From an uncultured Acidobacteriota bacterium (lineage in GTDB: Bacteria; Acidobacteriota; UBA6911), in NCBI GenBank assembly GCA_963827655.1, contig CAWHCF010000036.1, positions 1-64,000 on the forward strand: a DNA stretch of 64,000 bases, in the 5' to 3' direction. Below, in pieces: positions 26,754 through 27,535 of this stretch (the first letter of the stretch is position 1; every line of letters begins with the position of its first letter). Made by a program: the position numbers and the translations under genes. Below the pieces are notes generated by a model. The model saw nothing but the letters and a program-made list of their open reading frames with translations, was not told where the DNA came from and made no database searches.

Positions 26754-27406
26754 TTAGGCGGGGAAAAGTGCGAATCCAGGAAGAACGTTGAACGCTTGAC
26801 TCACGGGATCGGTCTTGGTGCCATTCGGGGTTTTCTTCACGTACAGCTCCGAAAGCCGCCTTTGCAGAGTCCCGCCGCGCGGGGCGGGAGTTCTGCAGGA
26901 TGACCGCCACCGGCACACCGGCCGAGTTCGCCAGTTCATCCAGCCGGGCGCGGCGGATCGGGAGCCCCACGCCTGTTCCCAACGACTGGCGCCCACGGCC
27001 TTTCTTCAAGCGCAGCCAACGGGCGACTTTTTTCGCCTGGCCCCGATAGAACTCGAAAAAGCAGCCCACCTGAAAGAACATCAAACAATTCCTGAACCGG
27101 CGCAGCGAACCATTTGTACTGAAGATTCTTTCCCAAAGGGGTTCCAGAAAGGCGACAACCAGATGATCGACAACCCGGTCACGAAAATCGGCGGCGAAGA
27201 TCTCGCGATGTTTGGGTTTGCTGGTGATGAAAGCCGACGAAGGGGCTGGCTTGATAAGCCCGGTCCTGCAGGTCCTGGCAGAGCTGGAACAGGTTCTCTT
27301 CCAAGCGTTGCTCGAACAGCGGGGCGCACCAGGAGTTTCGCTTGCTGCTGCGGCAGTTGAGATAGGCCCGGTGCGTGTTTTCAAACGAAAAGAGAGAAAC
27401 CATCAT
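26754..27406 (-). pseudogene. DGR-type reverse transcriptase remnant (catalytic core deleted) with MutS-I-like C-terminal extension
   Basis: MMVSLFSFEN.HRAYLNCR..KRNS...FEQRLEENLFQL..DLQ.R.Y...F....PK.REIFAADFRDRVV.HL....LEP.WERIF joins at ~27120 directly to QYKWF...LMFFQVGCFFEFY..QA; no YxDD motif. Confidence 0.8.
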
Positions 27407-27535
27407 TCTCCGGAACGATGCACACACAAGGCGCGGGACTCGGGGGATCTGTCCAGGCGGATGGAGAGGCGGCCGTCGAGGAAGTTGAAGATCCACGTGG
27501 CACCCGAGCCTTCCTTCGTTGAGCTCCACACTAAC
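27403..27535 (-). repeat. Putative DGR variable region VR3, abutting the RT start
   Basis: TGG ATC TTC AAC TTC CTC GAC GGC CGC CTC TCC ATC CGC...; stop TGA overlaps the RT ATGATG. Confidence 0.65.

What the first reader, a model, noticed from the sequence alone, without database searches (positions are those of the whole stretch)
26754..27535. Collapsed DGR core: a target gene's VR sits where the template repeat should be, fused to a gutted RT
Seen: copy 3 ends ...TCCGGAGAATGATGGTTTCTCTC, its stop overlapping the RT start, whereas copies 1 and 2 continue ...GAATGATGTGGGTCATTTGG. The RT runs ~95 aa (to LEPLWERIF) and jumps at ~27120 to a C-terminal FFQVGCFFEFY segment resembling MutS domain I, with no YxDD. 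No avd or AAC-rich template is present. Known: a common DGR order is target(VR)-avd-TR-RT, with TR and VR sharing a 3' end. Inference: VR x TR recombination deleted avd and TR, and a second deletion removed the RT core, freezing the repertoire unless an intact DGR elsewhere acts in trans. The MutS-I-like (mismatch-recognition-like) tail on a mutagenic RT is of interest in itself.
Basis: partly seen in the sequence, partly recalled or inferred. Interest (0 to 1): 0.7.

Follow-up and report, generated by a model that had tools for sequence, protein, structure and literature searches.

The report
Fossil DGR with gutted reverse transcriptase
This is the dead remnant of a diversity-generating retroelement, a reverse-transcriptase system that rewrites the tips of sensor proteins: its template and helper gene are gone, its enzyme gene has lost its catalytic core, and five once-variable sensor genes are left frozen.

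Summary
On the minus strand, a TIR/nSTAND1/Lcl_C gene ends at 27403, and its stop overlaps the ATGATG start of a reverse-transcriptase (RT) remnant (27410 to 26754).

The remnant matches a profile of 23 full-length RT+MutS_I proteins only at positions 1-95 and 401-483 of 502. The catalytic core is missing, and two 1-nt frameshifts add further damage.

Full-length relatives are canonical DGRs arranged Lcl_C target(VR) - bAvd - TR - RT. Their TR ends at the RT start, sometimes with ...GGAGAATGATG as here, and 494 of 540 TR/VR mismatches fall on TR adenines. In this window a VR sits where the TR should be. No TR, no clade-type avd and no other DGR RT were found in the 90%-complete genome.

The five Lcl_C copies keep footprints of adenine mutagenesis. 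Four of the five genes are frameshifted.

Short contigs from other soil metagenomes bridge both junctions. A second metagenome contig shows the same VR-RT adjacency with a different RT deletion.

The MutS_I tail is native to this RT clade and was reported in 2018. This scan has found decayed DGRs before on other DNA. The locus is an ordinary decayed example of a known system, unusually well resolved.

The parts
27403..28839 (-). Last open frame of target gene C: nSTAND1 C-terminal part, a membrane helix and the Lcl_C domain, ending ...RALCVHRSGE*. The variable-repeat-like part is about 27403-27540.
   Evidence: Pfam nSTAND1 E 1.7e-70 and Lcl_C E 1.5e-15. Codons are 18 of 21 NNC in the variable stretch. 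It aligns to the TR/VR of relatives.
28782..29694 (-). Upstream pieces of gene C in other frames: the TIR_2 end, nSTAND1 positions 1-89 and nSTAND1 positions 116-146. The gene is broken by at least three frameshifts.
   Evidence: Pfam hits on the separate ORFs; ORF list.
27401..27436 (-). 36-nt block shared almost unchanged by all Lcl_C copies (GCGCCTTGTGTGTGC[G/A]TCGTTCCGGAGAATGATG). It is IMH-like and is the presumed site of the VR x TR crossover.
   Evidence: Inverted repeat I8 is 97% complementary over 36 nt. Alignments. The label IMH-like is an inference.
27254..27410 (-). RT remnant, piece 1: MMVSLFSFENTHRAYLNCRSSKRNSW...DRAY. Its start overlaps the stop of gene C.
   Evidence: Family profile A2 positions 1-63, E 1.6e-12. 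60% identity to P0002 residues 1-55, E 3e-19.
27121..27249 (-). RT remnant, piece 2, after a 1-nt frameshift near 27251: PAPSSAFITSKPKHREIFAADFRDRVVDHLVVAFLEPLWERIF (RT motif 1 region).
   Evidence: Profile positions 48-95, E 1.7e-18. 64% identity to P0002 residues 49-95. A contig of run X1 lacks one base at 27251.
27106..27120 (-). Junction of the internal deletion. Profile positions 96-400, about 305 residues holding RT motifs 2-7 and the thumb, are missing. The two sides are in the same frame.
   Evidence: The junction is bridged by X3 record 12 (27057-27196).
26884..27105 (-). MutS domain I-like tail of the RT (...FRNCLMFFQVGCFFEFYRGQAKKVARWLRL...VAVILQNSR).
   Evidence: Pfam MutS_I 23.4 bits against a 20.6-bit cut-off. 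Profile positions 401-483, E 4.7e-11. The family tail against the genome's own MutS N-terminus gives hhalign probability 97%, E 1.1e-10.
26754..26879 (-). End of the tail in a third frame, after a 1-nt frameshift near 26878: RGGTLQRRLSELYVKK...FALFPA, with the stop at 26754-26756.
   Evidence: Matches P0005 residues 64-84. A contig of run X4 lacks one base at 26878.
25871..26712 (+). Target gene B (TIR_2 plus Lcl_C), convergent with the RT remnant. It is broken by several indels in and before its VR.
   Evidence: TIR_2 E 1.4e-23. Alignment with copy A shows indels. A contig of run X4 lacks exactly these three indels.
26713..26754 (+). VR-end motif of copy B: tandem 8-mers GGTCATTT GGTCATTG GGTCATTT.
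15190..17436 (-). Target gene A (TIR_2, nSTAND1, Lcl_C) in three frames, part of a segmental duplication with gene C. The VR is about 15190-15330.
   Evidence: Pfam; repeats D1-D3, D7-D9 and D14; NNC in 20 of 22 codons.
15146..15187 (-). VR-end motif of copy A (GGTCATTT GGTCATTC GGTTATTT).

Best explanation
The locus is a fossil diversity-generating retroelement (DGR) of the clade whose RT carries a C-terminal MutS domain I-like tail and whose targets are Lcl_C (DUF1566-type C-lectin) domains.

Inferred ancestral state: target gene C with its VR, then bAvd, then the TR, then RT-MutS_I. The element also served at least four further Lcl_C targets in trans (A, B, and the copies on contigs C13 and C41).

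Step 1 (inferred): recombination between the directly repeated VR and TR, within their identical ~36-nt 3' block, removed avd and the template. This left a VR-type repeat with the TR's 3' flank, so that the stop of gene C overlaps the RT start.

Step 2 (shown as a state, order inferred): the now useless RT gene lost about 305 codons, covering motifs 2-7 and the thumb, and picked up two 1-nt frameshifts.

Nothing in the assembled genome can replace the lost parts. The five variable regions are therefore frozen, and four of the five target genes have themselves acquired frameshifts. The element does nothing today. In intact relatives, the TR RNA is copied by the RT with errors at adenines, and the cDNA replaces the VR of TIR/STAND sensor proteins.
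For: RT identity
- Three pieces of the remnant match a profile of 23 full-length RT+MutS_I proteins: positions 1-63, 48-95 and 401-483 of 502, with E 1.6e-12, 1.7e-18 and 4.7e-11 (repeated).
- The best full-length hit, P0002, begins MMVSLFSF as here.

Relatives are DGRs
- 23 of the 79 best genome-contig loci have the fused RT.
- 18 of those 23 show TR/VR pairs. They hold 29 VRs and 540 mismatches, 494 of them at TR adenines.
- The TR ends 0-15 nt before the RT in most of these loci.
- 18 of 23 have 8-16 AAC in the 160 nt upstream of the RT, against 3 here.
- 22 of 23 target ORFs scanned carry Lcl_C (I gave the of the 29 VR-bearing ORFs).
- bAvd lies between VR and TR: 5 of 6 ORFs scanned are above the Pfam cut-off and the sixth scores 39.6 against 40.

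Loss in this genome
- No TR-like copy.
- No clade-type avd among 118,087 ORFs, and no bAvd above cut-off.
- No other DGR-type RT. The only other RT matches read by eye as a group II intron RT and a fragment of one.

Footprints of past mutagenesis
- Copies A and C13 differ by 15 changes in 22 codons, all at codon positions 1-2.
- NNC codons number 20 of 22, 20 of 22 and 18 of 21 in A, C13 and C. Third-position C is 33% and 28% in the rest of genes A and C.
- The variable codons align with AAC codons of relatives' TRs.

Flanks
- Copies A, B, C13 and C41 keep the VR-end tandem 8-mer motif seen after relatives' VRs and never after their TRs. Copy C has the RT start there instead.

The junctions are real
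- X2 record 10 (27343-27493, 6 differences) bridges the VR/RT junction. X3 record 14 (27375-27525, 5 differences) also covers it, with 26-35 nt on the RT side depending on where the junction is placed.
- X3 record 12 (27057-27196) crosses the internal deletion.

Independent parallel
- Metagenome contig L104 has an nSTAND/Lcl_C gene ending ...CVRGSGE* with GAATGATGG running into an RT remnant.
- That remnant keeps profile positions 3-45 and 272-492. Its deletion (46-271) differs from the one here (96-400).

Relaxed constraint
- The 14 listed substitutions between the window and X1 record 8 fall 7/2/5 on codon positions 1/2/3 (my count).
Against: - The crossover itself cannot be seen. The hybrid repeat is VR-like throughout its variable part, so the TR contribution is only the 3' flank. 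Any deletion with end points in the identical block would look the same.
- The genome is 90% complete in 53 contigs of at least 11 kb. An intact DGR, or a small avd-TR contig, could have been left out of the bin.
- All five private 1-nt or 2-nt indels that could be checked (27251, 26878, and 26588, 26645, 26673 in copy B) are absent from related contigs of other metagenomes. This could mean consensus errors in this assembly rather than real frameshifts.
- The spacer between GAATGATG and the LFSFEN codons is about 7 nt here and about 58 nt in L104. The two loci may therefore descend from separate collapses or from later indels, and the order of events is not proven.
- The RT tree on the 97 usable columns did not place the remnant.
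- The runs laid hold contigs, not raw reads, and none is the window's own sequence.
Confidence: 0.8

Rival explanations
1. Assembly artefact. The assembler jumped from the VR to the near-identical TR and skipped avd and the TR, so the real genome holds an intact or nearly intact DGR.
For: VR and TR share an identical block longer than common k-mer sizes (36 nt here). Small contigs are missing from this 53-contig bin. Five checkable indels of the window are absent from related contigs.
Against: Short contigs of two other soil metagenomes run through the VR/RT junction with VR-like sequence on one side: 4 differences in 83 nt, not the 15 or more expected of a TR. The RT-internal deletion is at no repeat and is also bridged. 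Contig L104, from another data set, shows the same adjacency. Even with avd and the TR restored, the RT would still lack its catalytic core.
Confidence: 0.04
2. The RT-N/MutS_I frame is a living small protein. The two 1-nt frameshifts would be consensus errors, and the in-frame fusion of 95 N-terminal RT residues to the MutS_I-like domain would work like a free-standing MSL accessory protein, for example at mismatched DNA.
For: The large deletion is in frame. Related contigs lack both frameshifts. P0006 (279 aa, Desulfobacterales) is another RT-N plus MutS_I protein without the catalytic part (MutS_I 36.8 bits). Stand-alone relatives of 88-115 aa exist (P0003, P0005). Wu et al. 2018 describe MSL genes of 112-283 aa.
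Against: No DGR RT or TR for it to assist was found in the genome. X3 record 12 has two further 1-nt gaps flanking the junction, which put the two halves out of frame in that population. Substitutions show no third-position excess (7/2/5). In L104 the tail is split over three frames.
Confidence: 0.07
3. A real deletion, but not VR x TR homologous recombination. avd and the TR would have been lost by an unrelated deletion, by mobile-element activity as described for Thiohalocapsa, or by an aberrant retrohoming event, with the end point in the shared block by chance.
For: Degenerate DGR loci shaped by transposons and MITE-like arrays are documented (Dore et al. preprint 10.1101/2023.09.22.558884, passages read). 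The neighbourhood is a rearranged, duplicated defence island.
Against: The junction is seamless. The VR reading frame, its stop codon and the RT start are exactly as in a TR-RT junction of relatives. No mobile-element remains lie at the junction. The same seamless product is seen in L104.
Confidence: 0.08
4. The RT fragment is not DGR-related but comes from a group II intron, retron or defence RT, and lies next to a lectin gene by chance.
For: The N-terminal tree is unresolved and had no outgroup. Pfam RVT_1 does not score the fragment.
Against: The best matches in 1.84 billion proteins include full-length RT+MutS_I proteins matched in two stretches. Genomic relatives of these proteins have adenine-specific TR/VR pairs. 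The only PDB match is chain 8ub7_A, 'Reverse transcriptase', 328 aa, E 0.1; that this is the Bordetella phage DGR RT is recalled, not shown by the call. The genome's two other RT matches, which read by eye as group II intron type, score far lower against the profile.
Confidence: 0.01

Closest known systems
DGR reverse transcriptases with a C-terminal MutS_I extension (three RTs noted by Wu et al. 2018, NAR 46:11, PMC5758913; passages read)
   Same: Same domain order, RT followed by a MutS domain I-like tail. Full-length relatives found here have IGNxxSQ, YxDD and a tail scoring up to 36.8 bits on Pfam MutS_I. TR/VR pairs show adenine-specific mismatches.
   Different: Here only the first ~95 and last ~120 residues remain.
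Legionella-type DGRs: CLec2/DUF1566 targets with avd plus a free-standing MutS-like (MSL) gene, 'Architecture D' of Wu et al. 2018 (passages)
   Same: The target domain class is the same: the VR sits in a DUF1566/Lcl_C domain at the C-terminus. A MutS domain I homologue forms part of the cassette, and avd is present in intact relatives.
   Different: In this clade the MutS-like module is fused to the RT rather than encoded separately. In the window avd and the TR are gone.
Degenerate DGR loci and DGR-diversified STAND/TIR/C-lectin sensors of Thiohalocapsa PB-PSB1 (Dore et al., bioRxiv 10.1101/2023.09.22.558884; passages read). Kaur et al. 2020 (PMC7159879) was seen in a search listing only.
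   Same: The targets combine TIR, nSTAND1 and a C-terminal lectin domain. Loci lacking an RT or TR sit beside diversified paralogues, and one element serves several targets in trans. One of the relatives found here (L023) is from a Thiohalocapsa MAG.
   Different: There the decay is ascribed to transposons and MITE-like arrays. Here the template loss is a seamless VR-to-RT join with no mobile-element scar, and no intact partner DGR was found in the genome.
Bordetella phage BPP-1 DGR (prototype; described in the introduction of Wu et al. 2018)
   Same: The general logic is shared: target VR, avd, TR and RT, with an IMH at the VR end that distinguishes target from template.
   Different: BPP-1 has a GC-rich inverted repeat after the IMH and an RT without a MutS_I tail. 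This clade often has A+T-rich tandem 8-mers after the VR.

Membership tests
Diversity-generating retroelement (functional cassette) | RT with DGR-type motif 4 (I/LGxxxSQ) and catalytic YxDD | tested here: not met
   Profile positions 96-400, which hold these motifs, are absent. The motifs are invariant in the 23 full-length relatives (G214 N215 S218 Q219, Y245 D247 D248).
Diversity-generating retroelement (functional cassette) | Template repeat paired with the VR, with mismatches at TR adenines | tested here: not met
   Whole-genome blastn finds only five Lcl_C gene ends and no TR-like copy. There are 3 AAC in the 160 nt upstream of the RT, against 8-16 in 18 of 23 relatives. Relatives: 494 of 540 mismatches at adenines.
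Diversity-generating retroelement (functional cassette) | Accessory gene avd | tested here: not met
   PF22296 scores at best 21.2 bits against a 40-bit cut-off. The clade-specific avd profile has no hit in 118,087 ORFs. The 13 PF05635 matches lie on other contigs, and the eight fetched as loci did not coincide with the RT matches.
Diversity-generating retroelement (footprint or remnant) | VR at the 3' end of a C-type-lectin-fold target gene | tested here: met
   Lcl_C in genes A and C and in the C13 and C41 copies. Gene B's Lcl_C-like part was recognised by alignment to copies A and C, not by Pfam. The copies align with TRs and VRs of relatives.
Diversity-generating retroelement (footprint or remnant) | Variation confined to codon positions 1-2 of NNC codons that align with AAC of the template | tested here: met
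   A against C13: 15 changes, none at position 3. NNC codons number 20 of 22, 20 of 22 and 18 of 21. Alignment to relatives' TRs.
RT-MutS_I clade of DGR RTs | N-terminal RT region and C-terminal MutS_I-like domain of the same family in one gene | tested here: met
   The two parts lie 15 nt apart on one strand and in one frame.
MutS domain I (PF01624) | Score above the Pfam gathering cut-off, and the aromatic-X-Glu motif at the position of the MutS GDFYE motif (the role of this motif in mismatch binding is recalled, not tested) | tested here: met
   23.4 bits against 20.6 and 24.7 bits in the genome scan. The family tail against the genome's own MutS gives hhalign probability 97%, with G-x-F-Y-E aligned to GDFYE. 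The window reads GCFFE. Binding to mismatches is not testable here.
TIR-STAND-lectin conflict-system sensors | TIR, nSTAND1 and sensor domain in one intact polypeptide | tested here: not met
   All domains are present, but they are split over 3 frames in gene A and at least 4 in gene C. Only the short TIR-Lcl_C gene on C41 is in one frame.
   Full-length RT+MutS_I proteins are among the best hits, and their genomic relatives have TRs. The genome's other RT matches, group II-like by eye, are unrelated loci on C22 and C49.

The most novel reading that the evidence does not exclude
VR x TR collapse may be a stereotyped, recurrent way for this DGR clade to die. It is seen here and, with an independent RT deletion, in metagenome contig L104. 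The RT-N/MutS_I mini-genes it leaves behind may be the raw material from which free-standing MSL accessory genes arise, and some may keep a function at mismatched DNA. Examples are this locus if its two 1-nt indels are consensus errors, P0006 of 279 aa, and the stand-alone 88-115 aa relatives.
Probability: 0.1. Interest if true: 0.5.

Novelty: new member of a known kind. Interest (0 to 1): 0.3.

Why it matters
The locus gives an unusually clean picture of how a DGR decays. The template and helper gene appear to go first, by a seamless join of the two repeats. The now useless enzyme gene then erodes, in different ways in two lineages, and finally the sensor genes break.

This helps annotators recognise orphan variable regions and RT stubs. 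It also shows that the RT-MutS_I fusion, known from three cases, is a sizeable clade tied to Lcl_C targets.

Finally, it points to a short A+T-rich tandem motif that marks VR ends but not TR ends in these elements. That motif could be tested as a signal distinguishing target from template.

Tried and rejected
RT tree
- The only usable part was 97 N-terminal columns, over 80 rows that were all DGR RTs, with no outgroup. The remnant sits on a long branch in an open polytomy, with no starred set holding it. Its highest identity is 60%, to L016.
- Adding the C-terminal part with MAFFT --add or --addfragments misaligned it, so it was left out.

Searches that led nowhere
- The metagenome-contig scan with P0002 found no relative. 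The permitted second scan, with window residues, gave 7 loci.
- Sequencing runs: only four soil or rhizosphere runs hold 5-8% of the sampled words, all as contigs. No raw reads of the source were available, so depth, strand and population variation at the VRs could not be examined.
- Related genomes: 1 of the 60 searched had a match (G008), and it is a different truncated DGR.
- Pfam and NCBIfam gave nothing for the 75-aa N-terminal frame.
- PADLOC gave only a generic 'RT' model, E 4.5e-05 and 6.8e-04.
- Earlier notes of this scan for this genome: none fit.

Idea rejected
- I considered whether copy C or copy B might be the template for the others. It is not: mismatches are not at adenines of either copy, and indels are present.

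Not run
- No structure or complex prediction was run. Sequence and profile evidence was sufficient.
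Full report
WHAT IS THERE

The window is the first 64 kb of contig C36 of an 8.18-Mb, 53-contig genome scored 90% complete.

On the minus strand a long sensor-type gene, gene C, ends at 27403 with ...RALCVHRSGE*. Its last open frame carries nSTAND1 (E 1.7e-70) and an Lcl_C domain (E 1.5e-15). Upstream pieces in other frames carry the rest of nSTAND1 and a TIR_2 domain.

The 17-mer at its end occurs three times in the window, against 0.02 expected. 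After ...GAATGATG, copies A (15188, minus) and B (26712, plus) go on with TGGGTCATTTGGTCATT.... Copy C goes straight into GTTTCTCTCTTTTCGTTTGAAAAC, which reads MMVSLFSFEN.

THE RT REMNANT

Three frames have to be read:
- MMVSLFSFENTHRAYLNCRSSKRNSW...DRAY (27410-27254).
- After one extra base near 27251: PAPSSAFITSKPKHREIFAADFRDRVVDHLVVAFLEPLWERIF, running without a frame change into STNGSLRRFRNCLMFFQVGCFFEFYRGQAKK...VAVILQNSR (27249-26884).
- After one extra base near 26878: RGGTLQRRLSELYVKK...FALFPA, with the stop at 26754.

The middle frame scores 23.4 bits on Pfam MutS_I, above the 20.6-bit cut-off.

A search of 1.84 billion representative proteins gave 569 hits at E <= 0.001. Among the best are proteins of 500-560 aa matched in two separate stretches. 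These are RVT_1 proteins with a C-terminal MutS_I-like domain. In an alignment of 23 of them (A2), the residues of IGNxxSQ and YxDD are invariant.

A profile of A2 matches the window at positions 1-63, 48-95 and 401-483 of 502, with E 1.6e-12, 1.7e-18 and 4.7e-11 (repeated). About 305 positions are therefore missing, covering RT motifs 2-7 and the thumb, between 27121 and 27105.

The family's tail is a true homologue of MutS domain I. Against the genome's own MutS N-terminus, hhalign gives probability 97% and E 1.1e-10, with G-x-F-Y-E aligned to GDFYE.

WHAT THE INTACT RELATIVES LOOK LIKE

A scan of one genome per species returned 79 loci. In 23 of them the RT and the MutS_I-like tail share one open frame. 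One locus has the tail in a separate ORF, and 55 have none.
- TR/VR pairs. In 18 of the 23 I found TR/VR pairs, comprising 29 VRs and 540 mismatches, of which 494 are at TR adenines. The five without a pair mostly have the RT near a contig end.
- TR position. The TR sits directly upstream of the RT. In L016 and L023 it ends ...CCCCGGAGAATGATG, with ATGATG leading into the RT, nearly as in the window. L109 is similar.
- AAC content. 18 of the 23 loci have 8-16 AAC triplets in the 160 nt before the RT. The window has 3.
- bAvd. Between the upstream VR and the TR lie 575-1063 nt, which in most loci encode a bAvd-like protein. Of six such ORFs scanned, five pass the Pfam bAvd cut-off and one scores 39.6 against 40.
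- Targets. Of 23 target ORFs scanned (23 of the 29 VR-bearing ORFs), 22 carry Lcl_C. One also carries NACHT and two carry PEP-CTERM.

The clade's standard order is therefore Lcl_C target(VR) - bAvd - TR - RT-MutS_I, often with a second target downstream.

WHAT IS MISSING HERE

In the window the place of the TR is taken by the end of a full-length target gene, and that sequence is VR-like (NNC-rich, not AAC-rich).
- Whole-genome blastn finds five Lcl_C gene ends (A, B, C, C13:73701-74063, C41:224202-224557) and no stand-alone TR-like copy. The RT remnant matches only itself.
- No bAvd scores above the cut-off.
- A profile built from 11 avd genes of the clade has no hit among 118,087 six-frame ORFs.
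- The only other RT matches in the genome, on C22 and C49, read by eye as a group II intron RT and a fragment of one.

FOOTPRINTS IN THE TARGETS

In the 22 codons after the conserved Trp, copies A and C13 differ by 15 nucleotide changes in 10 codons, all at codon positions 1 or 2. NNC codons number 20 of 22 in A, 20 of 22 in C13 and 18 of 21 in C. Third-position C is 33% and 28% in the upstream parts of genes A and C.

The variable codons line up with the AAC codons of relatives' TRs, in the pattern W-N-F-N-F-N-N-G-N....

All five copies share an almost invariant 36-nt 3' block, although they are otherwise only 70-83% alike. This fits one element having written all five.

Copies A, B, C13 and C41 are followed by tandem 8-mers of the type GGTCATTT. 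In the whole genome a two-unit version of this motif occurs five times, three of them at these gene ends.

A relaxed version of the motif follows 13 of 29 VRs of fused-type relatives and 23 of 72 VRs of the other relatives. It follows 0 of 18 and 0 of 35 TRs, against a background of about 0.015 per 80 nt. Copy C lacks it and has the RT start instead. Copy C thus has a VR's body and a TR's 3' flank, which is what recombination between the two direct repeats would leave.

IS IT REAL?

No raw reads of the source were available. Four soil or rhizosphere runs hold small shares of the region as short contigs. Laid on 26300-27900 they show:
- X2 record 10 (27343-27493, 6 differences) bridges the VR/RT junction with VR-like sequence on the gene side. 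X3 record 14 (27375-27525, 5 differences) also covers it, with 26-35 nt on the RT side depending on where the junction is placed.
- X3 record 12 (27057-27196, 2 differences, two 1-nt gaps) crosses the internal deletion.

These are related, non-identical sequences, so both joints exist in nature.

The same call shows that the window's two RT frameshifts (27251, 26878) and three indels of copy B are absent from the related contigs. The X3 variant has two other 1-nt gaps, at 27104 and 27129. The frameshifts are either real private mutations or consensus errors, and I cannot tell which.

Genome-wide, the assembly is not riddled with breaks. Median cover by open frames of at least 250 codons is 0.80 per 10 kb, against 0.52 for 20-30 kb of this contig, which is below the 5th percentile of 0.536. 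This suggests local decay.

The 14 listed substitutions between the window and X1 record 8 fall 7/2/5 on codon positions 1/2/3 by my count, with no third-position excess.

A SECOND CASE

The second metagenome scan returned contig L104. It holds an open nSTAND/membrane-helix/Lcl_C gene ending ...FLRALCVRGSGE*. Its GAATGATGG runs, after about 58 nt, into SLFSFENVHRAYLNCRRGKR....

Its RT remnant keeps profile positions 3-45, 272-345, 347-412 and 396-492, the last three blocks in different frames. It therefore lacks 46-271, while the window lacks 96-400. Each keeps something the other has lost, so the two RT deletions are independent.

The VR-to-RT join is common to both. Either the join came first in a common ancestor, or it arose twice. 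Both readings put template loss before or apart from RT erosion. This is inference.

STATE OF THE TARGETS

- Gene A is split over three frames.
- Gene C is split over at least four frames.
- Gene B carries several indels.
- The C13 copy has TIR_2 and Lcl_C in different frames.
- Only the 290-aa C41 gene is in one frame.

COMPARISON WITH WHAT IS KNOWN

Wu et al. 2018 (PMC5758913; passages read) note three DGR RTs with a weak C-terminal MutS_I motif. They define the free-standing MutS-like MSL accessory gene, and they class DUF1566-type VRs (CLec2, category d, Legionella type) among DGR targets. In the held library this is the only paper combining these terms.

Dore et al. (preprint 10.1101/2023.09.22.558884; passages read) describe DGR-diversified nSTAND1/NACHT/TIR/lectin sensors. 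They also describe 'degenerate' DGR loci lacking an RT or TR, which they ascribe to transposons, and targets served in trans.

A Bacteroides study (10.1101/2024.11.15.621889; passages read) shows that host MutS lowers DGR mutagenesis 5- to 10-fold. This gives a plausible, untested role for a MutS_I-like module.

I found no explicit description of a seamless VR x TR collapse in one full-text search and the passages read. That covers the held library only.

I made no dedicated literature search for the tandem 8-mer motif. The passages of Wu et al. mention only GC-rich inverted repeats after the IMH.

Earlier notes of this scan list several decayed DGRs in other genomes.

VERDICT

The locus is a decayed member of a known system and is not a working element. 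The MutS_I tail is native to the clade and is already in print.

Noticed in passing
window 15146-15187 (minus) and 26713-26754 (plus); C13 and C41 copies; VR ends in L015, L020, L022, L024, L028, L057 and others: A+T-rich tandem 8-mers (GGTCATTT-like, 2-4 units) directly follow the stop of DGR variable regions in this RT lineage across many phyla. They were never found after template repeats: 13 of 29 and 23 of 72 VR ends, against 0 of 18 and 0 of 35 TR ends. Genome-wide here there are only 5 hits, 3 of them at VR ends. This is a candidate signal distinguishing target from template. I made no dedicated literature search for it.
   Followed up: partly
L015, L022, L023, L024, L028, L029, L031, L033, L064, L109 (TR and VR ends printed): In relatives the VR end reads GGA-C-A(A/G), coding Gly-Gln-stop. 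The TR has A, G or T at that one position (GGAGAA, GGAAAG, GGATAA), a consistent single-base difference between IMH and IMH*. All five VRs of this genome read GGAGAA, the TR-like form.
   Followed up: no
window 14054-17436 and 25294-29820: A segmental duplication (83-100% identity in blocks) brackets a restriction-modification-like island at 17.5-25.7 kb. Its methylase and ATPase genes appear split into many short frames. The 20-30 kb stretch has the lowest long-ORF cover of this contig's first 100 kb.
   Followed up: partly
L014 (genome G008, same family), about 1339-3078: Another decayed DGR of a different type. By eye it reads as an FGE-sulfatase-like target ending GFRVCREAL, an Avd-like ORF, and an RT that stops after motif 2, directly followed by an unrelated gene. 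The domains were not scanned.
   Followed up: no
P0006 (279 aa, Desulfobacterales MAG); P0003, P0005 (115 and 88 aa): P0006 joins about 160 N-terminal RT residues to a MutS_I domain (36.8 bits) without the catalytic part. Short stand-alone proteins 60-64% identical to the window's tail also exist. Together these suggest a possible route from fused tails to free-standing MSL genes.
   Followed up: partly
P0017, P0019, P0119 (N-termini in alignment A2): Public gene calls for some of these RTs start upstream and translate the AAC-rich template repeat as an Asn-rich N-terminal extension (...NFNNGNVNNNNKSNTNYVRAVRGG). This is an annotation artefact that marks the TR.
   Followed up: no
window 35779-35910: An intergenic inverted repeat. 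Its 36-nt arms are made of TCATT-type short repeats (86% complementary) around a G+C-rich 60-nt centre. It resembles the VR-end motif in composition but lies next to no lectin gene.
   Followed up: no
window 16353-16437 and 28779-28839: Genes A and C change reading frame at the same place in nSTAND1, around profile positions 133-150. The break may predate their duplication, or it may be a shared error-prone site.
   Followed up: no
G000 C22:192008-192574 and C49:4426-4626: By eye, one apparently full-length group II intron-type RT (open frame 413 aa) and one fragment, next to a transposase-like gene. These are the only other RVT_1 matches in the genome.
   Followed up: partly
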